A stretch of 64,000 bases of DNA from a virus, in the UHGV virus genome UHGV-0124283; one strand, 5' to 3'. Positions 1,606 through 20,437 of this stretch are shown here, piece after piece; the stretch's first letter is position 1; every line of letters starts with the position of its first letter. The notes under the pieces are model-generated. The model worked only from the letters and a program-made list of their open reading frames with translations. It searched no databases and was not told the DNA's origin. The translations under genes were made by a program, and so were the position numbers.

Positions 1606-1608
1606 CGC

Positions 1609-2387: not shown

Positions 2388-2401
2388 ACGGAGTAAACAC
2401 C

Positions 2402-2827
2402 ATGAAGAAATTATCCCTTTCACTGATGCTGAACGTGTCGCTGGCGCTGATGCTGGCACTGTCCCTGATTTACCCGCAGAGCGTGGCCGTCAATTTTGTT
2501 GCTGCCTGGGCGATTCTGGCGACGGTTATCTGTGTGGTTGCCGGTGGTGTCGGCGTGTATGCCACTGAGTATGTGCTGGAACGCTACGGGCGGGAGCTGC
2601 CGCCGGAATCGCTGGCCGTGAAGATTGTCACGTCGCTGTTTTTGCAGCCGGTGCCGTGGCGCAGGCGGGCAGCGGCTCTGGTGGTGATGGTGGCGACGTT
2701 TATCTCGCTGGTCGCTGCCGGGTGGATTTTTACTGCGCTGATTTACCTCGTGGCGTCGGTGTTCTTCCGGCTGATACGTACGGCCTGCCGTCAGCGTTTT
2801 GAGGGGCGGGAACCATGTCAAAGCTGA
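2402..2827 (+). CDS. lysA: lysis-timing membrane protein LysA
   Basis: 141 aa polytopic membrane protein at P2 lysA position. Confidence 0.65.
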   Translation: MKKLSLSLMLNVSLALMLALSLIYPQSVAVNFVAAWAILATVICVVAGGVGVYATEYVLERYGRELPPESLAVKIVTSLFLQPVPWRRRAAALVVMVATFISLVAAGWIFTALIYLVASVFFRLIRTACRQRFEGREPCQS

Positions 2828-3240
2828 TGATTGTGCTGGTCGTGTTGTTATCACTGGCGGTGCCGGGGCTGTTTCTGGTGAAGCATGAAAATGCCAGCCT
2901 GCGCACCTCACTGGACAGGGCGAACAGCGTCGCCAGCGGGCAGCAGACGACCATCACCATGCTGAAAAATCAGCTTCATGTTGCACTCACCAGGGCAGAC
3001 AAAAACGAGCTGGCGCAGGTGGCACTGCGTCAGGAACTGGAGAACGCGGCGAAGCGTGAAGCACAGCGCGAGAAAACCATCACGAGGTTACTGAATGAAA
3101 ACGAAGATTTTCGCCGCTGGTATGGTGCTGACCTGCCTGATGCTGTGCGCCGGTTGCACCAGCGCCCCGCCTGCACCGACGCCAGTGATTGTCGCCAACG
3201 CCTGCCCGAAAGTGAGCCTTTGCCCGATGCCGGGCAGTGA
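2815..3240 (+). CDS. lysB: i-spanin-like LysB
   Basis: N-terminal TM helix then coiled-coil periplasmic domain; P2 lysB position. Confidence 0.65.
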   Translation: MSKLMIVLVVLLSLAVPGLFLVKHENASLRTSLDRANSVASGQQTTITMLKNQLHVALTRADKNELAQVALRQELENAAKREAQREKTITRLLNENEDFRRWYGADLPDAVRRLHQRPACTDASDCRQRLPESEPLPDAGQ

Positions 3241-3385
3241 CCCGGAGACGAACGGCGATTTAAGTGCTGATATCCGGCAGCTTGAGAACGCGCTGGCACG
3301 CTGTGCCAGCCAGGTAAAAATGATTAAACACTGTCAGGACGAAAACGATGCTCAAACCCGACAGCCTGCGCAGGGCGCTGACTGA
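3095..3385 (+). CDS. lysC: o-spanin lipoprotein LysC (overlaps lysB out of frame)
   Basis: Signal peptide with lipobox LCAGC, proline-rich mature part; ATG 3095 embedded in lysB. Confidence 0.5.
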   Translation: MKTKIFAAGMVLTCLMLCAGCTSAPPAPTPVIVANACPKVSLCPMPGSDPETNGDLSADIRQLENALARCASQVKMIKHCQDENDAQTRQPAQGAD

Positions 3386-3815
3386 TGCCGTCACGGTGCT
3401 GAAAACTAACCCCGATATGCTGCGGATATTCGTGGATAACGGGAGTATTGCCTCCACACTGGCGGCGTCGTTGTCATTCGAAAAGCGTTACACGCTCAAT
3501 GTCATTGTGACCGACTTTACCGGTGATTTTGACCTGCTCATCGTGCCGGTGCTGGCGTGGCTGCGGGAAAATCAGCCCGACATCATGACCACCGACGAAG
3601 GCCAGAAAAAGGGCTTCACGTTTTATGCAGACATCAACAATGACAGCAGCTTTGATATCAGCATCAGCCTGATGCTGACCGAGCGCACGCTGGTCAGTGA
3701 GGTGGACGGCGCGCTGCATGTGAAGAATATCCCGGAACCTCCGCCGCCGGAGCCGGTCACCCGCCCGATGGAGCTTTATATCAATGGCGAACTGGTGAGT
3801 AAGTGGGATGAATGA
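3348..3815 (+). CDS. R: tail completion protein R
   Basis: 155 aa, P2 gpR-like translation and position. Confidence 0.8.
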   Translation: MLKPDSLRRALTDAVTVLKTNPDMLRIFVDNGSIASTLAASLSFEKRYTLNVIVTDFTGDFDLLIVPVLAWLRENQPDIMTTDEGQKKGFTFYADINNDSSFDISISLMLTERTLVSEVDGALHVKNIPEPPPPEPVTRPMELYINGELVSKWDE

Positions 3816-4260
3816 GTTTAAGCGTTTTGAAGACCGGCTGACCGGACTGATTGAGTCGCTGTCACCGTCAGGGCGTCGGCGACTGAGTGCCGAACTGGCG
3901 AAACGTCTGCGGCAGAGTCAGCAGCGTCGGGTGATGGCTCAGAAAGCCCCGGACGGCACACCCTACGCGCCACGCCAGCAGCAGAGCGCCAGAAAAAAGA
4001 CTGGTCGTGTTAAGCGAAAAATGTTTGCGAAACTTATCACCAGTCGTTTTTTGCATATCCGCGCCAGCCCGGAACAGGCATCAATGGAGTTTTACGGCGG
4101 GAAGTCACCGAAAATCGCCAGTGTGCATCAGTTCGGTCTGTCGGAAGAAACCCGGAAAGACGGTAAGAAAATTGATTATCCGGCGCGTCCTCTGCTCGGT
4201 TTTACCGGTGAGGATGTGCAGATGATTGAAGAGATTATCCTGGCTCACCTTGAGCGTTAG
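3808..4260 (+). CDS. S: tail completion protein S
   Basis: 150 aa, P2 gpS-like translation and position. Confidence 0.8.
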   Translation: MNEFKRFEDRLTGLIESLSPSGRRRLSAELAKRLRQSQQRRVMAQKAPDGTPYAPRQQQSARKKTGRVKRKMFAKLITSRFLHIRASPEQASMEFYGGKSPKIASVHQFGLSEETRKDGKKIDYPARPLLGFTGEDVQMIEEIILAHLER

Positions 4261-4284
4261 TTGTGTCATTCCCGACACCTCATT

Positions 4285-4320
4285 GCTGCTGCCGGTGCTT
4301 ACCGGCAGCAGTCTTCTGTT
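4285..4320 (+). terminator. rho-independent-type hairpin after gene S
   Basis: Stem ctgctgccggt / accggcagcag (4286-4311), U-rich tail tcttctgtt. Confidence 0.45.
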
Positions 4321-4340
4321 AGAATACGTTAAAACTAAAG

Positions 4341-5441
4341 CTAAGGTTGTGTGCTTATGTTTTCTCTTATATTCGAGAAAAAATCGGAGATATCTCTGTT
4401 TTTCAGATTTAAACCTGCTTTGTTATTAAATTCAGATTCTAACGAAGGTGAGTTTTGAAACGCAACGATAATTTGACATAAATAACTCAAAAGAGCTTCT
4501 TTTGGCATGGTGGTTTCTCTGTAATAATTAATAAATGGTTCTCCGAAGCAGAATATTCTATCTACTATCTGCTTTTTCATTTGTGAGAGTTTTTGATTGA
4601 GTTGTTCTATTGTAGTTATGTTGGCTAGGTTTAAACCATTTAGTAGGTATCCCAAATCTTTATCCTTGTATCGGCCATGTACTGTGATTCCTGTTTTTTC
4701 TTTTATCTCTTCTGAAAGTTCACTCATAACTCGACTTGTGTTTAAGAATTCATCCAAAGTGAAAATATCTAAAACTGAATCACTAGTTCCTTGCTCTAGT
4801 TCTTTTGCAACCTCTTTCTGCCGTTCAGAAATCTTTTTTCTGATTTTAATAAATTCATCATCGGCCATTTCTAAAAGACCAGCTAAGCGTGAAAAGTATC
4901 TTCTTATTTCATTAGGCAGTCCTGTGGCCGACTTATAACCAATGTCGTGTTCAATCTCCGCCCAGGCATGCTGAAGGATTGATCGTATTTGTAATTCGGC
5001 TTTGATGTTTTTATATACTTCATATTCTTTTAAGTTTGTTCTGGTTGAGTTTAAAGTTACTATATAATGAAGTGATAGGTAACCAAATTTATCAGGCGCA
5101 ATTGAGGTTCTTTTATCAATAGAGTTCTCTTGGTCAATGGTGAACTCCTTTTCAACTATAGCAGCTATCTTATCAACATCATCAGCATAATGTGTGATGA
5201 TCCTGATACCAACGATATCAGTAATATCATCTATAGACTTGTATTTTCCCTTTTTATTAATCTTACCTTCAAGGCTTTTTTTTGTTTTAACTCTTGATTC
5301 AAGTGAGTGAATTGAAATTTTTTCATTGCGAATTAACGTGGTTAATAACGATTTAAGAGTAAGGGCATAGGACTCAAATTTATCTTTCCGTTCATCATAA
5401 GTAATTAGAATGTCTGACATGCGTGTATCCATTGGCTCCAA
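4341..5441 (-). CDS. RelA/SpoT-domain nucleotide pyrophosphokinase; candidate fused toxSAS toxin-antitoxin (CapRel-like)
   Basis: 366 aa; motifs RVKTKKSLEGK, DIVGIRIITHY, FGYLSLHYIV, ELQIRSILQHAWAEIEHD typical of RelA/SpoT synthetase fold; ~170 aa C-terminal extension; AT-rich island between P2-like S and V. Confidence 0.6.
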   Translation of the reverse strand: MEPMDTRMSDILITYDERKDKFESYALTLKSLLTTLIRNEKISIHSLESRVKTKKSLEGKINKKGKYKSIDDITDIVGIRIITHYADDVDKIAAIVEKEFTIDQENSIDKRTSIAPDKFGYLSLHYIVTLNSTRTNLKEYEVYKNIKAELQIRSILQHAWAEIEHDIGYKSATGLPNEIRRYFSRLAGLLEMADDEFIKIRKKISERQKEVAKELEQGTSDSVLDIFTLDEFLNTSRVMSELSEEIKEKTGITVHGRYKDKDLGYLLNGLNLANITTIEQLNQKLSQMKKQIVDRIFCFGEPFINYYRETTMPKEALLSYLCQIIVAFQNSPSLESEFNNKAGLNLKNRDISDFFSNIRENISTQP

Positions 5442-5565
5442 TTAGTGAGGATGTTTTTTTGCCAGTTAAGTAATCATTATATTCACTTCAAATGGAGTGT
5501 TGTGTCAACCTTAGAAAAACACTCTTTTATTGTTCTCATCAGTTCTCAGCAGCATGCTAGATCTT

Positions 5566-6201
5566 ATGAAAACACTCGCAAATATCCAGGAACTCGCGCG
5601 CGCACTGCGCAACATGATCCGCACCGGCATTATCGTCGAAACCGACCTTAACGCCGGTCGCTGCCGTGTGCAGACCGGCGGCATGTGCACCGACTGGCTT
5701 CAGTGGCTGACACATCGTGCCGGGCGTTCGCGCACATGGTGGGCACCTTCCGTGGGGGAACAGGTGCTGATTCTGGCCGTGGGCGGTGAACTCGACACGG
5801 CGTTCGTTCTGCCGGGGATTTATTCCGGCGATAACCCCGCGCCGTCTGCGTCGGCGGATGCCCTGCATATCCGTTTCCCTGACGGGGCGGTGATTGAGTA
5901 TGAACCCGAAACCAGTGCACTCACGGTAAGCGGAATTAAAACGGCCAGCGTGACGGCTTCTGATTCTGTTACTGCCACGGTGCCGGTGGTCATGGTGAAA
6001 GCGTCAACCCGCATCACCCTGGACACACCGGAGGTGGTCTGCACCAACAGGCTGATTACCGGCACGCTGGAAGTGCAGAAGGGCGGGACGATGCGCGGCA
6101 ACATTGAACACACCGGCGGTGAGCTCTCATCAAACGGTAAGGTACTGCATACCCATAAACACCCCGGCGACAGCGGCGGCACAACCGGGAGTCCTCTATG
6201 A
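5566..6201 (+). CDS. V: baseplate spike/assembly protein V
   Basis: MKTLANIQELARALRNMIRTG... gpV-like; ATG 5566 chosen over upstream TTG 5530. Confidence 0.8.
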   Translation: MKTLANIQELARALRNMIRTGIIVETDLNAGRCRVQTGGMCTDWLQWLTHRAGRSRTWWAPSVGEQVLILAVGGELDTAFVLPGIYSGDNPAPSASADALHIRFPDGAVIEYEPETSALTVSGIKTASVTASDSVTATVPVVMVKASTRITLDTPEVVCTNRLITGTLEVQKGGTMRGNIEHTGGELSSNGKVLHTHKHPGDSGGTTGSPL

Positions 6202-6545
6202 CAGCGCGTTATCTCGGAATGAATCGCAGTGATGGCCAGACTGTCACTGACCTTGAGCATATCAGCCAGAGTATCGGCGATATCCTGCGCACACCGGTCG
6301 GCTCACGGGTGATGCGTCGTGATTACGGCTCGTTGCTGGCATCAATGATTGACCAGCCGCAGACCCCGGCGCTTGAGCTGCAGATTAAGGTCGCCTGTTA
6401 CATGGCGGTACTGAAATGGGAACCCCGCGTCACCCTGTCATCCGTCACCACGGCGCGCAGTTTTGACGGGCGAATGACGGTCACGTTAACCGGTCAGCAC
6501 AACGACACCGGCCAGCCACTTTCGTTAACCATCCCTGTGAGTTGA
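6198..6545 (+). CDS. W: baseplate wedge protein W
   Basis: 115 aa gpW-like; overlaps V stop. Confidence 0.8.
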   Translation: MTARYLGMNRSDGQTVTDLEHISQSIGDILRTPVGSRVMRRDYGSLLASMIDQPQTPALELQIKVACYMAVLKWEPRVTLSSVTTARSFDGRMTVTLTGQHNDTGQPLSLTIPVS

Positions 6546-6549
6546 AACC

Positions 6550-7458
6550 ATGCCGATTATCGACCTGAACCAGCTACCCGCACCGGATGTGGTCGAGGAG
6601 CTGGACTTTGAAACCATTCTTGCCGAACGCAAGGCGACACTGATTTCCCTTTACCCGGAAGACCAGCAGGAGGCGGTCGCCCGTACCCTGACGCTGGAAT
6701 CCGAGCCTCTCGTCAAACTGCTGGAGGAAAACGCTTATCGTGAGCTTATCTGGCGTCAGCGTGTGAATGAGGCCGCACGGGCGGTGATGCTGGCCTGTGC
6801 CGCCGGTAATGACCTTGATGTGATTGGTGCCAATTACAACACCACGCGCCTGATTATCACCCCGGCAGATGATTCGACCCTCCCGCCGACACCGGCAGTG
6901 ATGGAATCTGACACCGATTATCGTCTGCGTATTCAGCAGGCGTTTGAGGGCTTAAGCGTCGCCGGGTCGGTGGGAGCCTATCAGTATCATGGCCGCAGTG
7001 CCGACGGGCGTGTCGCGGATATCTCTGTCACCAGTCCGTCTCCGGCCTGCGTCACCATCTCCGTGCTGTCACGTGAAAATAACGGCGTCGCATCCGAAGA
7101 CCTGCTGGCCGTGGTGCGTAACGCCCTTAATGGCGAGGACGTCAGGCCGGTGGCCGACCGCGTGACCGTGCAGTCTGCCGCCATTGTTGAATATCAGATA
7201 AACGCCACGCTTTACCTTTACCCAGGTCCCGAAAGCGAACCCATCCGCGCTGCTGCCGTGAAAAAACTGGAAGCGTACATCACGGCACAGCACCGGCTTG
7301 GGCGCGACATCCGTCTGTCTGCCATTTATGCCGCTTTGCATGTGGAAGGCGTGCAGCGTGTCGAACTGACTGCACCTCTGGCTGACATTGTGCTCAACAG
7401 TACGCAGGCGTCTTTCTGCACCGAATACAGCGTCGTGACCGGAGGCTCGGATGAGTGA
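6550..7458 (+). CDS. J: baseplate protein J
   Basis: 302 aa gpJ-like. Confidence 0.8.
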   Translation: MPIIDLNQLPAPDVVEELDFETILAERKATLISLYPEDQQEAVARTLTLESEPLVKLLEENAYRELIWRQRVNEAARAVMLACAAGNDLDVIGANYNTTRLIITPADDSTLPPTPAVMESDTDYRLRIQQAFEGLSVAGSVGAYQYHGRSADGRVADISVTSPSPACVTISVLSRENNGVASEDLLAVVRNALNGEDVRPVADRVTVQSAAIVEYQINATLYLYPGPESEPIRAAAVKKLEAYITAQHRLGRDIRLSAIYAALHVEGVQRVELTAPLADIVLNSTQASFCTEYSVVTGGSDE

Positions 7459-8062
7459 TTCGCGCCTGCTGCCGACCGGCTCATCACCGCTTGAAGTCGC
7501 CGCCGCAAGAGCCTGTGCGGAAATTGAAAAAACGCCGGTCAGTATTCGTGAGCTGTGGAACCCGGATACCTGTCCGGCAAATCTGCTGCCGTGGCTGGCG
7601 TGGTCATTTTCGGTTGACCGCTGGGATGATAAGTGGCCGGAAGCGACAAAACGCGCTGTTATCCGCGATGCGTATTTCATTCACTGCCATAAGGGCACTA
7701 TTGGTGCGATTCGCCGTGTGGTGGAGCCGCTCGGCTATCTGATTGAGGTGAGGGAGTGGTGGCAGCTCAACGAGGAGCCGGGGACGTTCCGCATCGTTGT
7801 TGGCGTGCTTGAGCAGGGTATTACCGAGGAAATGTATCAGGAGCTGGAGCGTCTCGTTGCTGATGCAAAACCTGCAAGCCGCCATCTGACGGGACTGGCT
7901 ATCAGTTTAAGTACAACCGGCAACATTTTTGCCGGTGCGGGATGCTATCACGGCGACGCCCTGACGGTTTATCCCTACACCCCGGAGGCCATTATTGTCG
8001 GAGGGGATTATTTCCCGGCCTCGGCCATTCATTTAATTGATAACCTGAGAGTAAACGCATGA
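7451..8062 (+). CDS. I: baseplate/tail protein I
   Basis: 203 aa at P2 gpI position; overlapping starts and stops. Confidence 0.7.
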   Translation: MSDSRLLPTGSSPLEVAAARACAEIEKTPVSIRELWNPDTCPANLLPWLAWSFSVDRWDDKWPEATKRAVIRDAYFIHCHKGTIGAIRRVVEPLGYLIEVREWWQLNEEPGTFRIVVGVLEQGITEEMYQELERLVADAKPASRHLTGLAISLSTTGNIFAGAGCYHGDALTVYPYTPEAIIVGGDYFPASAIHLIDNLRVNA

Positions 8063-9387
8063 CAGTGAAATACTACGCCATTCTGACTAATCAGGGCGCA
8101 GCACGGCTGGCTAACGCGACGATGCTCGGCAGTAAGCTGAATCTGACGCAAATGGCCGTTGGTGATGCAAATGGTGTCTTGCCGACACCAGACCCGGCAC
8201 AGACAAAACTTATTAACCAGAAACGCATCGCGCCGCTGAATCTTCTGAGTGTTGACCCGAACAACCAGAGCCAGATTATTGCGGAGCAAATCATCCCTGA
8301 GAACGAGGGCGGATTCTGGATCCGTGAGATTGGGCTTTATGATGATGAAGGCGTACTCATTGCGGTGGCGAACTGCCCGGAAACGTACAAACCGCAGTTG
8401 CAAGAAGGAAGTGGTCGTACCCAGACTATCCGCATGATTCTGGTTGTCACGAATACCGAAGCTATTACGCTAAAAATCGACCCGTCGGTGGTACTGGCGA
8501 CCCGTAAATACGTGGATGATGAAGTCCTGGAATTAAGGCTGTATGTGGATGACCAGATGAGAAACCACATTGCCGCACAGGATCCTCATACCCAGTATGC
8601 ACAGAAACATAATCCGACATTTACCGGAGAACCAAAAGCGCCGACGCCTGCCGCAGGAAATAACACCACGCGGATTGCGACCACTGCGTTTGTTCAGGCC
8701 GCTATTACCGCTCTGATTAACGGTGCGCCAGCCACGCTGGACACACTGAAAGAAATTGCCGCAGCCATTAACAATGACCCGAAATTCAGCACCACCATTA
8801 ACAATGCGCTGTCAGGTAAGCAGCCACTGGATGAGACGCTGACTCATTTGAGCGGAAAGGATGTTGCCGGCCTTCTCGCATACCTTGGTTTGGGAGAAGG
8901 CTCTGCATTACCTGTTGGTGTGCCTGTTCCATGGCCTTCAGCCACACCGCCAACAGGCTGGCTGAAATGCAACGGTGCGGCTTTTTCTGCTGAAGAATAC
9001 CCGGAACTGGCAAAGGCTTACCCGACAAATAAATTGCCTGATTTACGTGGTGAGTTCATTCGTGGCTGGGATGACGGGCGCGGGATTGATCCAGGTCGCT
9101 CTATTTTAAGCGAGCAAGGATATGCAACGGAGGATCATGCTCACGGATTACCGTCAAAATCAACCGTAGCAACTGACAGCTCAATTAATTTCTACTTTGA
9201 CGAGGCATGGGCTACTAGTGGTAATACGGGAGTTATCAGATGGGGGAACACAAGCGATGCAGGATTGCCAGCCCCTAATTATGGAACTTTTAAAACATAT
9301 AAACAGTCCGTAGCTAATTTAGGTACTGCTGGCTTAGAAACCCGCCCTCGTAATATTGCATTTAATTATATTGTGAGGGCGGATTAA
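8059..9387 (+). CDS. H: tail fibre protein: P2 H-like N-terminus joined to a P1 Sv-type variable C-terminus
   Basis: N-terminus MTVKYYAILTNQGAARLANATMLG...GLYDDEGVLIAVAN resembles P2 gpH; from ~aa 275 (LGLGEGSALPVGVPVPWP...RPRNIAFNYIVRAD) it shares the junction and terminal motif of the minus-strand cassettes. Confidence 0.7.
   Translation: MTVKYYAILTNQGAARLANATMLGSKLNLTQMAVGDANGVLPTPDPAQTKLINQKRIAPLNLLSVDPNNQSQIIAEQIIPENEGGFWIREIGLYDDEGVLIAVANCPETYKPQLQEGSGRTQTIRMILVVTNTEAITLKIDPSVVLATRKYVDDEVLELRLYVDDQMRNHIAAQDPHTQYAQKHNPTFTGEPKAPTPAAGNNTTRIATTAFVQAAITALINGAPATLDTLKEIAAAINNDPKFSTTINNALSGKQPLDETLTHLSGKDVAGLLAYLGLGEGSALPVGVPVPWPSATPPTGWLKCNGAAFSAEEYPELAKAYPTNKLPDLRGEFIRGWDDGRGIDPGRSILSEQGYATEDHAHGLPSKSTVATDSSINFYFDEAWATSGNTGVIRWGNTSDAGLPAPNYGTFKTYKQSVANLGTAGLETRPRNIAFNYIVRAD
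8873..8900 (+). other. candidate serine-invertase crossover site (cix/gix-like) at constant/variable junction
   Basis: TTCTCGCATACCTTGGTTTGGGAGAAGG; the half ACCTTGGTTTGGGAGAA recurs inverted at 10451-10477, 10924-10950 and 11364-11391. Confidence 0.4.
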
Positions 9388-9392
9388 TTATA

Positions 9393-10004
9393 TCAACTGG
9401 CTGTAGAAAGTTGTTTTTCAGGCCAGTTGAGATCTGGTGCCGTGGTTAAATCCATCGCGTTCAGCTCGTCTATATAATCTAGCACGGAGTTAAGCTGCGT
9501 GGTTTCTGCCTGCGTCAACTTCCGTCCAGCCCGTAATTTCAACTGAATCAGACTAATGGAATCCATCGCAGTATCAATCAATGACTGACGTTTTGTTTCT
9601 GCTGCCTCTACAGCTGCACTATGTTGAGCCTCAGTATCAACCACCCATTTCTCTCCATCCCATTTGTCGTATGGTGTTAGCGGGGCGATAGTGGTTGTAT
9701 TTTCCGGATAGTCACCCAACACCGTGATTTCTTCGGGATTCCCAGTGTCAATGCTATAGACAGTTTCGCCACGATGATCTGGCACATACTCCCATGAACT
9801 TAAATCCTCTGAACGGAGAATCGCATAACCTGCTTTATGTGAGCCTGGAGCATCCAAACAAGAATGTGCCGGAATACCAACGCCAACAGCAAGATATTCA
9901 GTTGATGCAGAAATATATTCCCGATTACCACCATCATAGTTATAAACGATAATGTTTCCTGCCTGTATGGCTATAAGTTCGCTATTTAATATCGCATTAT
10001 CCAT
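9393..10004 (-). CDS. tail fibre assembly protein (P1 U / Tfa-like)
   Basis: 203 aa; follows a variable cassette with ATGA overlap; converges on H stop. Confidence 0.65.
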   Translation of the reverse strand: MDNAILNSELIAIQAGNIIVYNYDGGNREYISASTEYLAVGVGIPAHSCLDAPGSHKAGYAILRSEDLSSWEYVPDHRGETVYSIDTGNPEEITVLGDYPENTTTIAPLTPYDKWDGEKWVVDTEAQHSAAVEAAETKRQSLIDTAMDSISLIQLKLRAGRKLTQAETTQLNSVLDYIDELNAMDLTTAPDLNWPEKQLSTAS

Positions 10005-10462
10005 TATGCTGCTCTCACAATATAATTGAAGGCAATGTTACGTGGGCGGGTTTCATTCCCCCCAGATAACTCCGTTCTGTATTGACTGGTAAATTTACCA
10101 TTAATCGCTCCTTCTTGGACGGCGTTATCTGTCGACAACAGACTATCCCCCCCTCTGTCATTTGGCACCAATACCGTGTTATCCCACGCGTCCCATGACC
10201 GAATATTATGATAATGACTTCCTGTTAACCACCCCTGTATGCTTAAGATGACCCTTCCCGCATCCACACCTCGCCCATCATCCCAACCACGGATAAACTC
10301 ACCGCGTAAATCAGGTAATTTTAACGTTGGGTAAACCTTTGCCAGATTTGGGTACTTTTCAGAAGAAAATGCTGCACCATTGCATTTCAGCCACCCCGTT
10401 GGTGGTGTGGCTGAGGGCCATGGAACAGGGACACCAACAGGTAATGCAGAGCCTTCTCCCAA
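10004..10462 (-). other. promoterless tail-fibre variable C-terminal cassette (Sv-like)
   Basis: Opens at the conserved junction (L)GEGSALPVGVPVPWPSATPPTGWLKCNGAAF and ends ...RPRNIAFNYIVRAA; no N-terminal constant region; preceded by cix-like site. Confidence 0.5.
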
Positions 10463-10472
10463 ACCAACGTTT

Positions 10473-10933
10473 TTATGCCGCCCTTACGATATAATTAAAG
10501 GCAATATTACGAGGACGGTTTTCATTAGCTGTTGGCACGACACGAGAGGCGTCGAATCCAAGGTCATCGGTTTTGCCTATATCAGTTGTGTTATTCGGCA
10601 TTCTCGCAGATCGTGTTCCTGCATCATAAAAAGCCCCTCTGATTGCATCAAAAGACATGCCAATCCCGCCATCTGCGAACCCCTCAATATTTCTTATTGC
10701 ATCCCCCTGTGAAGATAATAATTGTCGCCCGGCATCCACACCACGTCCGTCATCCCAGCCACGAATAAATTCACCGCGTAAATCCGGCAATTTATTAGTA
10801 GGGTAAGCCTTTGCCAGATTTGGGTACTTTTCAGAAGAAAATGCTGCTCCGTTACATTTCAGCCACCCCGTTGGTGGTGTGGCTGAGGGCCATGGAACAG
10901 GTACACCAACGGGCAGCGCCGAGCCTTCCCCTA
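10473..10933 (-). other. second promoterless tail-fibre variable cassette
   Basis: Open frame from conserved junction (GLGEGSALPVGVPVPWPSATPPTGWLKCNGAAFSSEKYPNLAKAYPTNKLPDLRGEF...) to ...NIAFNYIVRAA; first in-frame start only at TTG 10790. Confidence 0.45.
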
Positions 10934-10944
10934 AACCAACGTTT

Positions 10945-12594
10945 TCATGCCGCCCTTACGATATAATTAAACGCAATGTTACGAGGACGAATGGTTACAT
11001 AATTAACCCCATCACCTCGTGAAGGCCCTGCAAATGAAAAACGGGAAAATCCTGGTTGGTTAGAAACAATTTGGTCATAGTTATTGATTGAATGACCAGA
11101 CCCAATGTCGAAATTACCTCCGTAATGAGAAAAACTTGTACCATCCTGCCCTGAAAGCAGGGTACGTCCCGCATCAATCCCGCGCCCATCATCCCAGCCA
11201 CGGATAAATTCACCGCGTAAATCCGGTAATTTATTGGTGGGGTAGGCTTTTGCCAGTTTGGGATACATTTCAGAAGAAAATGCTGCTCCGTTACATTTTA
11301 GCCAGCCCGTTGGTGGTGTTTCTAAGGGCCACGGAACGGGCACACCAACAGGCAGTGCAGAGCCTTCCCCCAAACCAAGGTAATTAAGAACGCTCTGAAT
11401 ACTGGGCTTACTAAGAATTGCACGTCCAACACTTGTCAGTGCAGTTAACGCGGCACGATCAACCCCTGTGAAATAAGGGAGTTTATCTGCTGCGGTAGCT
11501 AGTGCCGCTAGAGCAGTGAGCGTAGCGTCTGCCGCTTGCTTTCCATTAGCCAAATCATATGCAGCCTTGACAGCTTTCGGTGTAGCGGCCAGCACTTCAG
11601 ACGTGCTGTTAGTGGCACTACTGAGCTGAGTGATGCCTTTCGCTGTCAATGAAGCTGTTGGCACACCAGTGATCTGATTCCATGGATGTGTATGACTGGA
11701 TGGTGCCTTTCCGGCTGCTAGATCGTATGCAGCTTTAACCGCTTTTGGCGTTGCAGCTAATGTTTCAGAAGTGCTGTTGGTGTCGCTACTGAGCTGAACT
11801 ATCCCTTTTTGTGTCGTGGTTGCATCCTGGGCTGTATACTTCCCGTTAGCCAGGTCATATGCAGCCTTGACAGCTTTCGGTGTGGCGGCCAGCACTTCGG
11901 ACGTACTGTTAGTGGCACTACTGAGCTGAACTAATCCCTTTTGCGTTGTGCTTGCATCCTGCGCCGTATACTTGCTTTTCGCCAGATCGTAGGCTTTTTT
12001 AACTGCCAGCGAACTCGCAGCAACATCACTTCTGGTACTGGTTACAGAGTCTGAAATATCAATGCCGATCGTGCGGTTGATACGCTCGGATGTATCAATC
12101 ATCTCTTGAGTAATGGTAGATACGCCAGCAGGGATATTCACCGTACAAACCAGCAGTTCCCCATCACCTAACTGATATGAATCGGTATAGGTTCTGGCAA
12201 CAAATTCAGCTGCATGAATATGTGACGCGGTATTCACCTGATAGGTATCTTCTCCAAGAAGGTATCTTCCCTTCAGCACAATTGCATATTTCTTGCCTGC
12301 GTTAAGTGCAAGAGAGATATCCTTACGATGCTGAATAGTTACCTGGTAGAATTCACCAATATCCACTGACGCCGCGCCAGCGGTTTTATCTCCATCCACT
12401 GAGGTGATTAACAGGTTCATCCCACCGCCAGGCTTAGGCAAGAAACCAGCATAAAATCCCGGGTCAACAATTCCCCTGAATTTTCGGTTTAGAGCGGCTG
12501 ACAGATATGGTTCGTGGTATTGCACATCAGCCACCAGAGCCAACGACTCGGGTGATGGGTAAGTAACCGATGTAACAACTGTAACGTCATTCAT
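10945..12594 (-). CDS. tail fibre protein (P1 S-like; constant plus variable part)
   Basis: Start ATG 12594 (MNDVTVVTSV...) with AAGGA RBS; repeated TAQDA..TQKG.VQLSS.TNSTSE.LAATPKAVKAAYDLA motifs; same C-terminal module. Confidence 0.7.
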   Translation of the reverse strand: MNDVTVVTSVTYPSPESLALVADVQYHEPYLSAALNRKFRGIVDPGFYAGFLPKPGGGMNLLITSVDGDKTAGAASVDIGEFYQVTIQHRKDISLALNAGKKYAIVLKGRYLLGEDTYQVNTASHIHAAEFVARTYTDSYQLGDGELLVCTVNIPAGVSTITQEMIDTSERINRTIGIDISDSVTSTRSDVAASSLAVKKAYDLAKSKYTAQDASTTQKGLVQLSSATNSTSEVLAATPKAVKAAYDLANGKYTAQDATTTQKGIVQLSSDTNSTSETLAATPKAVKAAYDLAAGKAPSSHTHPWNQITGVPTASLTAKGITQLSSATNSTSEVLAATPKAVKAAYDLANGKQAADATLTALAALATAADKLPYFTGVDRAALTALTSVGRAILSKPSIQSVLNYLGLGEGSALPVGVPVPWPLETPPTGWLKCNGAAFSSEMYPKLAKAYPTNKLPDLRGEFIRGWDDGRGIDAGRTLLSGQDGTSFSHYGGNFDIGSGHSINNYDQIVSNQPGFSRFSFAGPSRGDGVNYVTIRPRNIAFNYIVRAA

Positions 12595-12605
12595 CAAGCA
12601 TATCC

Positions 12606-13040
12606 TTATGCTGTAGTCGAGTTTATGGCCATAACTGCGGTATATGTTTTGCCCACATACAGCGAGTCTTCCTGGACACAAATAATGGCGATTGGCTTAT
12701 TCTCGTTATCCAGAACAACCAGAGTGTTGAATGGGTAGTTTTTCCCTTCCTGCAGCTGACTTTGATCAAGGTCCATTCGGACAGTAATTATCCCGCCTGA
12801 GTAGGTTGGGACGAGGTTGATGGTGCAAAATTGACTGGTCAGTTCTGCCAGATCGAAAGCCTTTGGCAGTTCTCCAATCTCATAAGTGCCATCTCCTTTC
12901 TTAGTAACCAGTGAACTGGTACCGAAAACGGCCTTGCTGATTAAAAATCGAGAGCCTTTGTTAATGGACGATTCAGCGCGCCGCTGATAGTAATAGTCCA
13001 ACAACTGACTCTTATAGAGGTTTGTTGAGACGTCAGACAT
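12606..13040 (-). CDS. tail-fibre-associated structural protein (P1 R position)
   Basis: 144 aa ORF immediately upstream of tail fibre gene, same strand. Confidence 0.45.
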   Translation of the reverse strand: MSDVSTNLYKSQLLDYYYQRRAESSINKGSRFLISKAVFGTSSLVTKKGDGTYEIGELPKAFDLAELTSQFCTINLVPTYSGGIITVRMDLDQSQLQEGKNYPFNTLVVLDNENKPIAIICVQEDSLYVGKTYTAVMAINSTTA

Positions 13041-13118
13041 GATTTTCCCTAATCAATGTTGTGAAGCCTCATTGTAAGATAAGTAACTTGTCACCCCGCC
13101 CTGCGGACGGGGTGATTG

Positions 13119-13958
13119 TCACGCATCGCTATCCAACAGCAAATCATCTGCGCGGGTGCGATCAAACGTAGGCGTTGCTTTCACAATAGTGCCGCCCGGC
13201 GTTGCAGTGATCGGGGCGTTAATCGACGTAACTTCAGTAAGCGAAGTTGTATCCGAAGTTTCAAACCAGCAGAATGCTTTTTCGGTATCAGAAATCTCAT
13301 TCAAAGTGATCATGTCGGCCTGTTCATTTACAACAACCGACAAATAGAGCGTAAGCCCATCAAACACTATATGCAGTGGCAGTAGAGGCTTTACGAACTG
13401 ATTAAACTTTCTGAGAATTTCTTCTGTAATTGCGGACTGATCTATCGTTCCAGTAATACCCATTGTCCGGGCCAGGTCGTTTATGGGAATACTGATCATT
13501 CCTCTGGAAGTCAGAAACATCTCGCCGAATGTGCCGCCGGTGGTTTCCAGTGTGCTTTCTGGAATCAGGACCGTGCCATAGGGATGACGTTCAAAGTCCA
13601 CCGGAGCATATATTGGATCCCATAAAACCGATATACCGTTAAATTCGCGATAAATTGTCTGGTTTATAGGGCGTTCAGTACCCTTAAAATGGATCTCATC
13701 AAACCGCTGTTGTAACAACATCGGAACGGAAGATGAATTCGACGTTCTGATAGTAAAAAACTGGCCAAGTTCATTTGTCCTAGTCTCCAGATCCTCCTTG
13801 CTCATGGAGAAAATAGACTTCCGGTTGGTAATTCGCTCCAACCATGGGTCAACAAAGGTGTCCATCATTGACTGAACCAAATCAGCCAATGATTTATAAA
13901 GTAATGACTTTTGCTTAGCTGATGTAAGCCGGTTATTAAACCAGGAACGCTGCATCAC
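13119..13958 (-). CDS. phage tail/baseplate protein
   Basis: 279 aa ORF in tail gene block; overlaps next gene. Confidence 0.4.
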   Translation of the reverse strand: MMQRSWFNNRLTSAKQKSLLYKSLADLVQSMMDTFVDPWLERITNRKSIFSMSKEDLETRTNELGQFFTIRTSNSSSVPMLLQQRFDEIHFKGTERPINQTIYREFNGISVLWDPIYAPVDFERHPYGTVLIPESTLETTGGTFGEMFLTSRGMISIPINDLARTMGITGTIDQSAITEEILRKFNQFVKPLLPLHIVFDGLTLYLSVVVNEQADMITLNEISDTEKAFCWFETSDTTSLTEVTSINAPITATPGGTIVKATPTFDRTRADDLLLDSDA

Positions 13959-15388
13959 TCCTCCTCATACGAAATATTAAAGGTGGAGTTTTCTGTATCC
14001 AGATAAACGAAATCGTAAAAGCCGTTGGACTCATTCCACTCGACAAATTCCAGATAAAAGTCGCGGAAATAACCCAGCGTTTCGATAAATGCCCAAACGT
14101 CTTTTTTCTTGATTAGGATGTACTTGCCGACACGGTTCGGATCAAAGAAAGTTGAGTCACGCCCAAATTTTGTTTCCAGTGCCGACTTCAGCTCATCAGT
14201 CACGTTCTCAATGGTCAGGCTTGCCGATATCCGCCCAGTGATAGTGATCTTAAAGGGGAGTTTTCTGACCTCTTTATACGAGAATTTCTTGTTCAACTCA
14301 TTCGGCACCTTCTTAAAGGCAGCCAGGATCACTTCTTCAAGCTCTGACTGGCTTTTGTTTGGATGCCATCCTGAAATAAATATCTTATTGATATTCCGAA
14401 CATTATAAGCACCATCTAATTTCTCTTGCTGGCCTTCGCCCCATGCCTTTACCCAGGACAGTCCCGGGATGTTACGCACCAAAAAATACGTATAGTCCCC
14501 GCCCCATACGACCTGATCATCATAGGCAAGGTAATATTGTGCACGATTACGTGTGATCTCCGTTGTTTCGGCATCGGTACCTGCGGTTATGGGTGTCGTT
14601 GTCTTAACTGAAATCAAATTAGCTAAATTAGCCGCAGAATCGACAGGCGTCAGGTTTTGGCCAGCAACCAGGGTTATATCTCCGTTGGTGCACCATACCT
14701 TAAGTGTAATGGTCGAGCCTTCTGGCGGTATTTGCCCAATTAGCCCATCACCGAATCGAACCCCCAACTGCTCGGATGGCTTATAAAACTCAACGTAGAC
14801 CTGGCTTTTACTACCGGCTAACCGGAACATAGTGCTGGAAGACCACTGCGTGGTCTTACCATCGGTCGTCACGAATACTTCCAGCTTATAGCAGACAGCA
14901 GTGAGAGCCTTTGATAACACGACTTCCAGAAATTCTTTGGCTGCCGTAACGGTATATGTCACCTCCTGGATTTCCAACTGTGCCACTTCTACCGTACCGG
15001 TGCCGTCAACCAACCTGCATACATCCATAGTCATGTAAGGGTACTGGTCGTCAGATATTAAAGGCATATTTTTGGGGATTACCGCTGGGGCATCTTCACT
15101 TGTGGCGGTGATCTCAATCATCCCCGATGACGGTGTTGGCTTGGTACCAACGTAACTATTCGTTTCTGCCGCTGCCAGGATAGAGGAACGCCGCGTCGCG
15201 GTCGATATAAAGCCTTCAGCCAGCGCCGCATCGGCATACTGAAAGCACCTGTAGACAATCTGGGTAATAAACAATGTCAGCATCGAGACAAATTGAGAGC
15301 CGACAAACTTCGACCAGAATGAATCTTTCTCGACAAGCTCTTCAAACTCTGCACGAATACTGTCTTTAGTCGGTGTTGTTTTACTCAT
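13955..15388 (-). CDS. phage baseplate protein
   Basis: 477 aa ORF, translationally coupled to neighbours. Confidence 0.4.
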   Translation of the reverse strand: MSKTTPTKDSIRAEFEELVEKDSFWSKFVGSQFVSMLTLFITQIVYRCFQYADAALAEGFISTATRRSSILAAAETNSYVGTKPTPSSGMIEITATSEDAPAVIPKNMPLISDDQYPYMTMDVCRLVDGTGTVEVAQLEIQEVTYTVTAAKEFLEVVLSKALTAVCYKLEVFVTTDGKTTQWSSSTMFRLAGSKSQVYVEFYKPSEQLGVRFGDGLIGQIPPEGSTITLKVWCTNGDITLVAGQNLTPVDSAANLANLISVKTTTPITAGTDAETTEITRNRAQYYLAYDDQVVWGGDYTYFLVRNIPGLSWVKAWGEGQQEKLDGAYNVRNINKIFISGWHPNKSQSELEEVILAAFKKVPNELNKKFSYKEVRKLPFKITITGRISASLTIENVTDELKSALETKFGRDSTFFDPNRVGKYILIKKKDVWAFIETLGYFRDFYLEFVEWNESNGFYDFVYLDTENSTFNISYEEE

Positions 15389-15744
15389 AGCACCACGTCC
15401 TGTGTGATAGTTATATCCCTGATACGAATGGATATTTTCAACTTATCAAAAGCATCTCCCTCGGCTACTGACAAGCCAGAAATCGGTATGTCAGGTAAAT
15501 CTACCGTCAGTTTTTGCAACAGCATTGCCTCAACCGCAATTTGAACATGCGACAAGTTGGTCGGTTCGTGTTTAAACTGCGGTAAAACATTGCCCCATGA
15601 CGGATCTCCGTATACCTCACCCTGATAAGTGTTTAGCCACTCATATAAACGAGCGCCCCAGGCCTCCTCCTGGGACTCATACGTTTTTACGCCGGATAAC
15701 TCCAGCGTCAGCAAAGGATCAATTTCGTTATTGTTGGCCATCAA
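15385..15744 (-). CDS. phage structural protein
   Basis: 119 aa ORF with overlapping stop/start on both sides. Confidence 0.35.
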   Translation of the reverse strand: MMANNNEIDPLLTLELSGVKTYESQEEAWGARLYEWLNTYQGEVYGDPSWGNVLPQFKHEPTNLSHVQIAVEAMLLQKLTVDLPDIPISGLSVAEGDAFDKLKISIRIRDITITQDVVL

Positions 15745-18700
15745 TCAACTCTCGCGTAGTCATTCATCAACGGATCATCAATTGACAGTGGTACCGTGCG
15801 CATAACGCCCGGCTGAGGCGTGCTGACCTTTACGACAGTTCCCTGGCCTTTCGCCGAGTCTTTGGTGTGCTCTTCAATCCTGGCAAGCAATGAGGTCATC
15901 TGCGCAAACAGCCGCTTCGTTTCACCATCAAGTGAAACGGTATTATCAGCCAACTGCATTGTCGGCTTGGCACCGGAGCCGCCAAGGTCACTAATAACCT
16001 GTCCGTCTATCTGCATACGACCGGTTGGTTGCTGCAAATCGTTGGCGGCAGTCGTCACCTGGAACGTGGATGCTGGTTGAGGAGAATTATTTGAGCGCAT
16101 TCCCCGGGCATTAATGAGTTTGTCATACAGTCCATCAATCCCCATTTGTGCGCCGAGCTGGTCAAAGTAACTTGAGTTGCTGGCCACTGGACGCGCCTCT
16201 TCAACTGGCGTCGGAGTATCAACATACACATTGCCAGCTGCTGTTGCGGTCCCATTTCCTCGTGCACGTTCTTCGAGGGTTCCCTGGACGACTTCTCGAC
16301 GCATCCCCCGACCATTCATGAATTTGTTGACCAGATCGTTAACGCCAACAGCATTACCGATTTTGTCTACCAGACCGCCCTTCTCAAACGGGCTATCACC
16401 AGGGGTAAACGCCAGGCCAGTAGACTGATCGATAACGGCGTTATCAGGCAGTGGTCCCCTCACTCCATATTGCGCCCCCCCCTGTGCTCCTGCCCCTGGT
16501 GTATAGATTTCACCACCTAAATAGCGAGCACGATGAGTATTGACCTTGATCGCGTACTCACGGTTTTCTTTCGATAAGTCACCTGTGCCTTTTTTCCACC
16601 TATTAATAGTGCCAAACCCAGCGTTATATGCAGTGATGGCCTCGTTTAAGTCTCCATTGGCTTGCTTCAGATACTTGCTCATGAGAAGAGCCGCAGCTTC
16701 TGCCGATTTCACAGGATCAAATGCATCCGGTTCCGATATCCCTGTCTCTTTACGAGCAATACTCGTGAACTGGAACATCCCGAGTGCGCCACCACTTAAC
16801 TTTCCATCTGGTGATCTTGTAAGCGGAGACTTTGCGTTAGGATCCCCTCCTGATTCAGTTGCAGCAATCGCGTAAAGAGTGCCTTCAGGAAGACCATATT
16901 TATTCTCTAGTTCAGCAAAATACGGAGCTAACTTATCGAGATTTGCCTTACCTTCAGCGCCAAGGCTTCCGACTTTTACATCTAAGTTGCCATTATTGTA
17001 GGTATCAGCAGCTTTCTGAATGTCATTCCCAGTGCCGGTGGTATTACGCGACGATGATGACGAGCTATTTTGTCCAATAGCTGAATCAATTTTCCGCACC
17101 GCGCTATTGCCCATTTCTACGGCATTTGCATTGATAATCTGATTGGCAGTTTCTTTAACTGTTTTATTGCTATCTTTCGCCGTGTCCAGTGCCGCATTTA
17201 TCACGCGGGTAGCAATATTAGTCTGTTTAGCATCGGATTCAGTTTTAGAATCAGATGTCTCCTGGTGGCTATTAACCGGAGCTTTTAACTCTGGAGTGAT
17301 TTCTTTTGCATTAGCCTCGCCGATCGGATTGGGTATTTTTGATACAATCATTGCCGCAGGGGTATTTTTAACGGCATCAACCGCTGCATCTAATGCTTTA
17401 CCGGGTAAATTTTTAACCCCATCCCAAATATTACCAGCCGCCTCTTTAATGTGTTTCCCTGGGTTCTTAATGAAATCAATTGCACTATCAATTGCATCAC
17501 TGAAAACCTGTTTCAGGTTATCAACAGTAAAGAAGTCTTTGATGGCATCCAGCTTTTCAAGCAGCTTATTAGATGTATCGCTAAACCATGCTGAAACAGC
17601 ATCACCAATCTTTGCTGTGTAATCTTCGAACTTGGTAGAAATGGTGTCGCCAAGGTTAGAAATATATGTTTCTAAGTTGGTAATCCCACTATCAATGGCC
17701 TGGGCAATACTTTCCGTCGAAAATGATTGCAACATATTGCCGATATCCTCAAATCCAAGTGATTTGAGAACCTCACCAATGGCGCTGCTAATACCAGATA
17801 CCAGTCCCCCCATATCAAGAACATTGGCTAACGTATAAGCGGCTTTTTGCTGGAATGATGGCTCTTGTCCTGATTTAAGCCCAAACGCTCGACGTTGCGC
17901 TTCTGTATCATTCCAACCGGTTACCGCATCATAAATACCTCCAGCCACTGTGCCGACTAAGGGAATTGCGCGTAACGCCCCTTTACCAACTGCCTTTAAT
18001 CCAAATTTACCTGCTGCCCGGGCAGCCAAATCTCCACCTTCATGGGCGATAGTCTTCTTGCCACCACCGCGTAGCATTCCTACAAGTTTCTTTGCCCCCA
18101 GAGCGCCAAAAGCGAGTGCTCCAGCTTTTTTCAGCATGCCACGCCCCATTAACAACGACGCGACGCCACCGGCCCCCTTCCCTAACAGGCTAAATAGTTT
18201 GGACAGCAAGCCGCCCTTCTTTTTCCCGGTGTTTTTGGCTATCTGATCAAGGGCGCTGAGAATCTTGTCATTGCCCTCTTTAATTTCGCTGGTCTGCTCC
18301 TGAAGTTCCTGAACCGTCCGTTTTTGGGTGTTAACCTGAACGACATCGGCACTATTTTGCGATTTACGCCTAAAAAAACCTTTTCTACGGCTGTTATCGT
18401 CATTGCCACGAATCACATCGGCAATAGACTTTCTGGCACCATTAAGCGATCCACCAACTTCTTTTGATATCCCGCCAAGCTCCTTCCCTGCTGCCCACAA
18501 TGGACCAGCAACGGCATAACCTAACGCATCGACGGCACGAGTCTCTGAAGGGTTACCTATGCCTTCAGCTACTTTTGACAGTTTTTTTAATAAACCTGAT
18601 TCAGCATTTAGACGCTCATCATCCTCTTTGCGCCTGGCCTTTTCAGCACGTTCAGCACGGGCATCTTCCGCTGCGGCCTTACTCCCTGACTTTCCAATAA

Positions 18701-20423: not shown

Positions 20424-20437
20424 CCTTGCTCCTTAAT

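What the first reader, a model, noticed from the sequence alone, without database searches (positions are those of the whole stretch)
8860..11400. Tail-fibre variable-cassette locus bridging the P2-like and P1-like blocks; cix-like sites but no invertase
Four copies of a conserved ~150-bp junction (protein LGLGEGSALPVGVPVPWP..TPPTGWLKCNGAAF) each precede a different C-terminal module ending ...RPRNIAFNYIVRA(A/D): one on the plus strand inside H, and three on the minus strand (in full-length S and in two start-less cassettes packed stop-to-junction before the tail fibre assembly gene). Each junction contains ACCTTGGTTTGGGAGAA-like sequence resembling Gin/Cin/Hin-family crossover sites, and the plus-strand copy is inverted relative to the other three. 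This is the substrate geometry of a multiple-inversion host-range switch, yet no recombinase ORF is in the window. Alternatively the shared junction is the homology through which the P2-like and P1-like modules were joined. H has no cognate assembly-chaperone gene on its own strand.
Basis: partly seen in the sequence, partly recalled or inferred. Interest (0 to 1): 0.6.

Follow-up and report, generated by a model that had tools for sequence, protein, structure and literature searches.

The report
P1-plasmid tail-fibre cassette switch, chimeric join
The repeats are the already known invertible tail-fibre cassette array of a P1-like plasmid, and its apparent fusion to a P2-like prophage gene runs through 89 shared bases, so it is probably an assembly artefact rather than a new switch.

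Summary
There are four about 230-nt junction copies, one on + and three on -. Each starts with a 26-bp cix-like site with a TT core and opens in frame into a different C-terminal module.

This is the Min/Cin-type multiple-inversion cassette array of a P1-like IncY phage-plasmid. The same block is 97-99% identical in many about 95-kb plasmids. There it sits beside a serine invertase and occurs as exact inversion isomers.

The invertase is missing only because the plasmid sequence is opened at this point. It should lie about 37 kb beyond the window's right end.

The P2::P1 join is not at the crossover site. Window 1-8899 is 99.99% identical to a chromosomal P2-like prophage. Positions 8885-9020 equal that prophage's own inverted cassette. 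From 8932 onward the sequence equals the plasmid cassette. The switch therefore lies in an 89-bp identical stretch, 46-136 bp 3' of the core, and is homology-driven.

The source is a short-read, SPAdes-style ENA contig with about one plasmid length after the join. The hybrid H protein is unique among 15 billion proteins. I judge an assembly chimera most likely (about 0.65) and a real RecA cointegrate less likely (about 0.25). Interest is low.

The parts
8059..9387 (+). Composite 'H' ORF of 442 aa. It is made of the P2-like H constant part (8059-8884), the crossover site, a P2-type junction up to at least 8931, and the plasmid c4 receptor-binding module from 9021 at the latest to the stop.
   Evidence: ORF and Pfam domains Phage_tail_fib plus Collar. 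SNP mapping. The protein is a singleton cluster found on one contig only.
8873..8898 (+). cix-like crossover site in H: TTCTCGCATACC TT GGTTTGGGAGAA.
   Evidence: Dyad symmetry is 10/12, and the right half matches P1 cix at 10/12. Identity to prophage L009 H ends at 8899, and identity to L009's inverted cassette starts at 8885.
8932..9020 (+). Interval where the sequence switches from P2-prophage type to P1-plasmid type. This 89-bp stretch is identical in both putative parents.
   Evidence: The window carries G8922 and A8931 as in the L009 inverted cassette, whereas the plasmids carry C and G. The window carries C9021 and C9057 and everything 3' of them as in plasmids L025, L003 and L028, whereas L009inv carries T and T and then diverges.
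9393..10004 (-). Tail fibre assembly chaperone gene (tfa, P1 U-like), 203 aa. It is co-oriented with S and convergent with the c4 module.
   Evidence: Pfam Caudo_TAP, E 3e-30. The same c4/tfa convergent pair occurs in plasmids L003, L025 and L028.
10004..10479 (-). Silent start-less cassette A (module 10468-10004) with its site at 10454-10479: GGCATAAAAACG TT GGTTTGGGAGAA.
   Evidence: Collar domain.
10473..10951 (-). Silent start-less cassette B (module 10940-10473) with its site at 10926-10951: GGCATGAAAACG TT GGTTTAGGGGAA.
   Evidence: Collar domain.
10945..12594 (-). Expressed P1-type tail fibre gene S, 549 aa by the gene call. The constant part Sc runs 12594-11380. The site is at 11365-11390 (TTCTTAATTACC TT GGTTTGGGGGAA). 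The current variable module runs 11379-10945 and is identical to the silent cassette WP_023156927 of pMB9698_1.
   Evidence: About 97% identity to P1/P7 S-R from 11907 onward.
12606..13040 (-). P1 gene R. It marks the start of the colinear P1-like backbone that runs to the window end.
   Evidence: Pfam Phage_P1_tail_fiber_R on the contig gene call. Colinearity with P1 and IncY plasmids.

Best explanation
Window 8.86-11.40 kb is the receptor-binding cassette array of a Min/Cin-type (Din-family serine invertase) multiple-inversion switch. It belongs to a P1-like IncY phage-plasmid.

How the switch works. S is transcribed on the minus strand. Its constant part ends in a 26-bp cix-like site that lies in the codons Y-L-G-L-G-E. 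Behind it come the currently fused module, two silent start-less modules, one tfa chaperone gene, and one oppositely oriented silent module (c4). The invertase cuts at the TT core of two inverted sites and flips what lies between them. This fuses another module in frame to Sc. That step is inferred from the family and supported by natural isomers.

Why the invertase is missing. In the plasmid circle the invertase gene, and the enhancer that in P1 lies inside it, sit just left of the (+) cassettes. The contig opens the circle at c4, so they fall about 37 kb beyond the window's right end.

The link to the P2-like H gene. This is a second, separate thing. A chromosomal P2-like prophage with its own two-module invertible segment contributes H up to its site, plus the first 47 nt of its own Collar-type cassette. 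The sequence then changes to the plasmid's c4 inside an 89-bp stretch (8932-9020) that is identical in both. The join is therefore through homology and not at the crossover core.

The join is most likely made by the short-read assembler crossing a shared repeat. The contig is then chromosome, plus P2 left arm, plus one lap of the plasmid.
For: Array identity:
- Window 8882-11378 occurs as one block at 96.9-98.7% identity in about 95-kb E. coli plasmids.
- c4 plus tfa is 99.3-99.6% identical in more than 13 complete plasmids.
- Those plasmids carry a recombinase next to the cassettes.
- The sites match P1 cixL/cixR: same TT core, right halves 9-10/12.

The switch works in this plasmid family:
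- In the complete plasmid pRHBSTW-00503_2, Sc is fused to c4 exactly at the core.
- The joint reads TTCTTAATTACC TT GGTTTGGGAGAA, with plasmid-type SNPs directly after it.
- The tfa and five cassettes are inverted there.

Join position:
- Window 1-8899 is 99.989% identical to prophage L009.
- Positions 8885-9020 are identical to L009's inverted cassette.
- The plasmid c4 differs at 8922 and 8931 and is then identical over the whole stretch compared, 8932-9441.

Origin of the two sides:
- The left part has 2479 chromosomal versus 8 plasmid places.
- For the right part, 379 plasmid records cover at least 80%.

Pointers to an artefact:
- The source is ENA ERZ1311137 NODE_12_length_154363_cov_12.58.
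- 94.6 kb follow the join, which is about one plasmid length; relatives are 93.9-99.6 kb.
- No record among 5,426 complete E. coli genomes, the plasmid set or the phage set covers at least 80% of window 7500-13500, the stretch that spans the join.
- The hybrid H is a singleton among about 15 billion proteins.
- Other assemblies break their contigs in this very region (L013, L014).
- Chimeric contigs through shared k-mers are a recognised failure of metagenome assembly (PMC7299287).
Against: The reads could not be inspected. An 89-bp repeat is shorter than most Illumina reads and inserts, so an assembler would usually resolve it or break there rather than misjoin.

The k-mers that link H_N to the G8922/A8931 junction must exist in the reads. 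A flipped P2 isomer, or a recombinant, is therefore really present in the sample. Yet the predicted flipped-isomer H protein is absent from the collection, while the unflipped one is on 28 contigs.

That ERZ1311137 is a metagenome assembly rests on the tool's description of its ENA source and on the contig name, not on sample metadata.

The far end of the contig, where the invertase is predicted, could not be fetched.
Confidence: 0.62

Rival explanations
1. Real cointegrate. The P1-like plasmid integrated into the chromosomal P2-like prophage by RecA-type homologous recombination. The exchange lay in the 89-bp identical (about 185 bp at about 97%) Collar junction shared by the flipped prophage cassette and plasmid cassette c4. 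H would then end in a plasmid module, and the P2 tail genes would lie about 95 kb away.
For: The switch lies inside homology, as a single crossover predicts. The H ORF stays in frame. H_N joined to the P2-type junction must be present in the reads. A repeat this short is normally resolved by reads.
Against: No comparable structure was found in 5,426 complete E. coli genomes, 72,556 plasmids or 50,697 phage records. The hybrid protein is unique. The contig stops after one plasmid length and does not continue into the P2 right arm. The event is rare a priori and would have to be fixed in the sampled population.
Confidence: 0.25
2. Invertase-made fusion. A Cin/Min-type recombinase joined the H site of the prophage to the c4 site of the plasmid at the TT core, between two molecules.
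For: Both sites have an identical core and right half (TT GGTTTGGGAGAA). The invertases of the two element types are 79-93% identical. Similarity to plasmids begins at 8882-8885.
Against: The first 47 nt after the core carry the prophage alleles G8922 and A8931. All examined plasmid c4 copies carry C and G, including the true invertase product Sc::c4 in pRHBSTW-00503_2. From my own knowledge of Gin/Hin/Cin enzymology, wild-type Din invertases need inverted sites and the enhancer on one supercoiled molecule, and they disfavour fusions.
Confidence: 0.05
3. This is a native P2/P1 hybrid phage with a single four-site inversion switch, and its recombinase is encoded elsewhere or has been lost, leaving relic cassettes.
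For: One + and three - sites with the same core are the right substrate geometry.
Against: Each half is over 97% identical to a separate, complete and common element with its own adjacent invertase. The cassettes are not relics, because near-identical plasmids exist as inversion isomers.
Confidence: 0.03

Closest known systems
Min multiple-inversion region (M segment) of plasmid p15B, E. coli 15T-. References seen in reference lists: Sandmeier et al. 1990 PNAS 87:1109; Iida et al. 1990 Mol Microbiol 4:991; Sandmeier, Iida and Arber 1992 J Bacteriol 174:3936.
   Same: P1-related IncY plasmid. More than two crossover sites. Start-less 3' tail-fibre gene segments that can be fused to one constant 5' part. 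A Din-family serine invertase next to the array in intact relatives. The window's P1-side flanks (S, R) are about 96-97% identical to P1, and the P1 record annotates that stretch as 96% identical to p15B.
   Different: The window itself lacks the invertase and the remaining (+) cassettes. The p15B sequence X62121 was not available for direct comparison, so the equivalence of individual cassettes is untested.
Cin / C-segment of phage P1, and Gin / G-segment of Mu
   Same: The crossover site sits at the same Y-L-G-L position of S. It has the same TT core and a right half-site GGTTTAAGAGAA against GGTTTGGGAGAA here. The mechanism is inferred to be the same.
   Different: P1 has two sites, two long modules (about 1.6 kb) and a U/U' chaperone pair. 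Here there are at least four sites, short modules of about 0.45 kb, and a single tfa for all of them. The invertase of the relatives is only 74% identical to Cin.
Invertible H segments of chromosomal P2-like prophages (for example L031 / GCA_025523585.1, L006, L011)
   Same: These supply the left part of the window. The order is H constant part, site, module, tfa, inverted tfa, inverted Collar module, a 197-aa Resolvase/HTH_7 invertase, then the sheath gene. The junction is 93.6-97.2% identical to that of the plasmid cassettes.
   Different: They hold two modules only. In the window this segment is cut 47-136 nt after the site and replaced by plasmid sequence.
R64-type shufflon (Rci tyrosine recombinase, sfx sites)
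   Same: Multiple inversions shuffle the C-terminal segments of one surface-protein gene.
   Different: The recombinase class and the sites differ. Here the sites are cix-like dyads and the relatives encode serine invertases. This locus is not a member.

Membership tests
Din-family (Cin/Min/Gin/Hin/Pin) invertible tail-fibre segment | 26-bp crossover sites: two 12-bp imperfect inverted half-sites around a 2-bp core, homologous to cix. | tested here: met
   There are four sites, all with a TT core. Their right halves match P1 cix at 9-10/12. Their left halves match at 8-9/12 for H and S, and at 4/12 for the two silent cassettes.
Din-family (Cin/Min/Gin/Hin/Pin) invertible tail-fibre segment | Sites lie at the constant/variable boundary, so that inversion swaps C-termini in frame. 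| tested here: met
   All four modules are open from the core to a stop in the frame set by Y-L-G-L-G-E. A natural Sc::c4 fusion lies exactly at the core in pRHBSTW-00503_2.
Din-family (Cin/Min/Gin/Hin/Pin) invertible tail-fibre segment | A serine invertase gene (Resolvase plus HTH_7), with the enhancer in its 5' part, adjacent in cis. | tested here: not met
   It is absent from the 64-kb window (tblastn best E 3.7). It is present next to the array in every intact relative. It is predicted on the same contig about 37 kb past the window end, but this was not verified.
Din-family (Cin/Min/Gin/Hin/Pin) invertible tail-fibre segment | Alternative orientations (isomers) are observed. | tested here: met
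   This was seen between near-identical plasmids, not within this sample. c4 is silent in pMS6198C and pMB9698_1 but fused to Sc in pRHBSTW-00503_2. The window's Sv equals the silent cassette of pMB9698_1. Within-sample isomers cannot be tested without the reads.
p15B Min-type multiple inversion system | More than two sites and several start-less cassettes on a P1-related plasmid backbone. | tested here: met
   There are three plasmid-side sites in the window plus c4. Relatives carry 5-8 cassettes. The backbone is colinear with IncY plasmids.
p15B Min-type multiple inversion system | Sequence identity of the invertase and the mix sites to p15B itself. | not testable with these tools
   X62121 is not in the collections, and the primary papers are not held. 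PMC6906374 reports a 98.5% Min-like invertase in a related P1-like plasmid.
Site-specific (invertase-made) P2::P1 fusion | The parental switch lies exactly at the 2-bp core. | tested here: not met
   The switch maps to 8932-9020, which is 46-136 nt 3' of the core. Compare the true core joint.

The most novel reading that the evidence does not exclude
The join is real. A P1-like phage-plasmid has integrated into a resident P2-like prophage by recombination within the shared Collar-domain junction of their tail-fibre cassettes. The P2 H site and the plasmid's Min sites have an identical core and half-site. They would then lie in cis and inverted, so one invertase could hand plasmid cassettes to the P2 fibre gene and flip large chromosome segments.
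Probability: 0.22. Interest if true: 0.45.

Novelty: already known. Interest (0 to 1): 0.15.

Why it matters
If the join is an artefact, which I think most likely, the main lesson is practical. The conserved junctions of invertible tail-fibre cassettes are shared at 97-99% nucleotide identity between chromosomal P2-like prophages and P1-like plasmids. They can therefore fuse a plasmid to a chromosome in short-read contigs, creating false "hybrid phages" and false "orphan" inversion systems.

Biologically, the locus adds one more isomer of a well-sampled Min-type host-range switch. It also confirms that the two unrelated phage types draw on one pool of sites, cassettes and invertases, an idea already proposed in the early 1990s.

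Only if the cointegrate were real would it be a modestly interesting case of phage-plasmid integration through tail-fibre homology.

Tried and rejected
1. Fetching the far end of the source contig to see the invertase and how the contig ends.
- A look-up with the last window protein returned other contigs only.
- A homology search with the Min-like invertase returned no representative identical to the common plasmid protein.
- Cluster tables gave no contig of 154,363 bp for these widespread proteins.

2. Direct comparison with p15B. X62121 is not in the collections. Sandmeier 1992 and Lobocka 2004 are not held.

3. I first assumed the join was at the crossover site, because all plasmid similarity starts at 8882-8885. 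I rejected this after the SNP comparison with the prophage's own inverted cassette.

4. I considered that the cassette block might belong to the P2-like side, because a chromosomal prophage covers window 7552-11378 at 88.6%. I rejected this because plasmids match the same block at 97-99%.

5. The promoter and terminator scan of 8000-13200 found nothing above chance. It says nothing about tfa expression.

6. I looked for the predicted flipped-isomer H protein of the prophage. It is not in the collection.
Full report
**What is in the sequence**

The window has two very different halves.

- Positions 1-9387 (+) carry P2-type late genes: M, L, X, holin, lysis genes, R, S, a RelA/SpoT-like insert, then V, W, J, I and H.
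- From 9393 onward everything is P1-type on the minus strand: tfa, two start-less cassettes, S, R, gene 16, the baseplate genes, sit, and so on to the window end.

- One junction copy lies on + (8870-9111) and three lie on - (10241-10470, 10726-10942, 11165-11393). They are 75-89% alike.
- The 14-mer TTGGTTTRRGRGAA occurs four times against 0.15 expected by chance.
- Each module is open in frame from the core to a stop and carries a Collar domain.
- There is no invertase in the window.

**The sites**

Written in coding orientation, the four sites are:

| Site | Left half | Core | Right half |
|---|---|---|---|
| H, 8873-8898 | TTCTCGCATACC | TT | GGTTTGGGAGAA |
| Cassette A, 10454-10479 | GGCATAAAAACG | TT | GGTTTGGGAGAA |
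| Cassette B, 10926-10951 | GGCATGAAAACG | TT | GGTTTAGGGGAA |
| S, 11365-11390 | TTCTTAATTACC | TT | GGTTTGGGGGAA |
| P1 cixL | CAATCCTAAACC | TT | GGTTTAAGAGAA |
| P1 cixR (reverse complement) | TTATCCAATACC | TT | GGTTTAAGAGAA |

The P1 sites come from the annotated P1 record. The window sites are therefore cix-family sites. They sit at the same Y-L-G-L position of the fibre gene as in P1, and all have the same core.

In the silent cassettes the 5' half-site is made by the preceding module's conserved ...RAA-stop. This explains the stop-to-site packing.

**What the array is**

- Window 8882-11378 is bounded on both sides by sites. It occurs as one block at 96.9-98.7% identity in about 95-kb E. 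coli plasmids.
- c4 plus the convergent tfa is 99.3-99.6% identical in more than 13 complete plasmids.
- In pMS6198C the order is invertase(-), four (+) cassettes, tfa(-), one (-) cassette, S(-).
- In pMB9698_1 it is invertase(-), seven (+) cassettes, tfa(-), S(-).
- The module now fused to Sc in the window is, residue for residue, the silent cassette nearest the invertase in pMB9698_1.

I built the hypothetical Sc::c4 fusion and searched for it. In 29 plasmid records one place covers at least 80% of it.

In the complete plasmid pRHBSTW-00503_2, S ends in c4. The tfa and five cassettes are inverted, and the joint is exactly TTCTTAATTACC TT GGTTTGGGAGAA.

So this plasmid family carries a working multiple-inversion switch of the kind described for p15B Min (references). 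It is related to P1 Cin, but with many short modules and a single tfa. The invertase of these plasmids is 74% identical to Cin. It is 93% identical to that of one chromosomal P2-like prophage and 79% identical to that of another.

**Why no invertase is in the window**

The window is colinear with P1 from P1 coordinate 37.15 kb upward. P1 cin lies at 31.7 kb, so it falls about 37 kb beyond the right end of the window.

The source contig extends 39.5 kb beyond the window. That is enough to hold the invertase and about 1.5-2 kb of (+) cassettes. This is a prediction; I could not fetch that end.

**Where the P2 and P1 sequences meet**

The P2-like half is essentially the prophage of GCA_025523585.1 (L009/L031). 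Window 1-8899 matches it with 1 mismatch in 8899 nt.

In that prophage the order is H (Gp53-like module), tfa, inverted tfa, an inverted Collar-type cassette, a 197-aa Resolvase/HTH_7 invertase, then the sheath gene.

- Identity of the window to L009 H stops at 8899.
- Identity to L009's inverted cassette starts at 8885. This is what a flip at the site would give.
- The identity to the inverted cassette continues without mismatch to 9020.
- It includes G8922 and A8931, where every plasmid c4 examined has C and G. That holds even for the true invertase product in pRHBSTW-00503_2.
- From 9021 on, the window follows the plasmid allele (C9021, C9057, and the whole c4 body, the tfa and beyond). It differs from the prophage cassette.
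- The plasmid pMB9698_1 is identical to the window over the whole stretch compared, 8932-9441.

The change of parent therefore lies in the 89-bp stretch 8932-9020, which is 46-136 nt 3' of the core. That excludes a simple invertase crossover. It points to homology, either in vivo or in the assembly graph.

**Real or artefact**

The window comes from ENA ERZ1311137, contig NODE_12_length_154363_cov_12.58. The name is SPAdes style, and the look-up tool describes its ENA source as metagenome assemblies.

Points in favour of an artefact:

- The join is at about 59.74 kb, and 94.6 kb follow it. Related plasmids are 93.9-99.6 kb. The contig therefore looks like chromosome, plus P2 left arm, plus one lap of the plasmid, ending where the lap closes.
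- The left half is almost always chromosomal (2479 versus 8 places). The right half is almost always on about 95-kb plasmids (379 records).
- No record among 5,426 complete E. coli genomes, 72,556 plasmids or 50,697 phage records covers at least 80% of window 7500-13500, the stretch that spans the join.
- The hybrid H protein is a singleton among about 15 billion proteins.
- Other draft assemblies simply break in this region (L013, L014).
- An 89-bp exact repeat exceeds k = 55, which from my own knowledge is the largest default k of metaSPAdes. Both elements also have invertible, hence heterogeneous, flanks here. Chimeric contigs through shared k-mers are a known failure mode (PMC7299287).

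Points against an artefact:

- The repeat is shorter than most reads.
- The H_N::P2-junction k-mers must truly exist in the sample.
- The predicted flipped-isomer H is not in the collection, while the unflipped one is on 28 contigs.

My estimates are: assembly chimera about 0.65, real RecA-type cointegrate about 0.25, and other explanations under 0.1.

**The "missing chaperone"**

c4 is convergent with the single tfa in all intact plasmids, and no site lies between them. Any gene that ends in c4 therefore lacks a same-strand tfa. This applies to the true Sc::c4 isomer and to the composite H alike. It is a property of the array, not of H. How tfa is expressed in the Sc::c4 isomer is not explained. 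The consensus scan showed nothing above chance.

**Verdict**

The biological entity is an already known kind and is abundantly sampled. The bridge to P2 is probably not a real feature. Interest is low.

Noticed in passing
window 4341-5441 (-): A RelA/SpoT-domain gene (PF04607; weak PADLOC match to candidate system PDC-S33, E 1e-16) sits in the P2 slot between S and V. It is present in some otherwise near-identical prophages (L008-L010, L013, L031, L035). Other genes take its place, or nothing does, in others (L005-L007, L012, L030, L037). It looks like a defence-type cargo gene.
   Followed up: partly
window 9393-10004 (-) and L028 6131-6742: The Min-type arrays have one tfa for 5-8 modules. 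In the natural Sc::c4 isomer (pRHBSTW-00503_2) the tfa is antisense to S. It is unclear how the chaperone is expressed there, or whether c4 needs it.
   Followed up: partly
L002 (NZ_CP062865.1) 11314-17525: In this chromosomal P2-like prophage the tail block (sheath, tube, E, tape measure, U) lies on the strand opposite to H, directly after the invertase. L006 and L031 have it co-oriented with H. This may be a large inversion.
   Followed up: no
L001 (pD72-mcr1) 3119-5914: ISApl1 and mcr-1.1 are inserted inside the cassette array, between the tfa and the (+) cassettes of a P1-like plasmid.
   Followed up: no
L015 (GCA_026684595.1, 186-kb contig) 13279-20683; L023 (225-kb contig): P1-like genes lie on draft contigs much longer than a P1 plasmid. 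In L015 they run straight into genes of another phage (Terminase_2, Head-tail_con, GP7). These may be further chimeric contigs or real hybrids.
   Followed up: no
window 11539-11970 (-), inside S: There are three copies of a 132-nt unit (64-75% identical to the reference copy; Phage_fiber_2 repeats). S length varies from 549 aa here to 859-872 aa in related plasmids. This is like the a/b repeated elements annotated in P1 S.
   Followed up: no
L025 4037-4495 versus L009 20224-20742: The Collar-type module of the P2-like prophage also occurs as a silent cassette in P1-like plasmids. The protein is similar, but the junction is only about 81% identical at the DNA level. The two element types thus share module types as well as sites.
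   Followed up: partly
window 10945-12681 (-): The mechanical ORF for S starts at a TTG and overlaps R by 76 nt. The gene call on the contig starts S at the ATG at 12594 (MNDVTVV..., 549 aa), which matches P1 S.
   Followed up: yes
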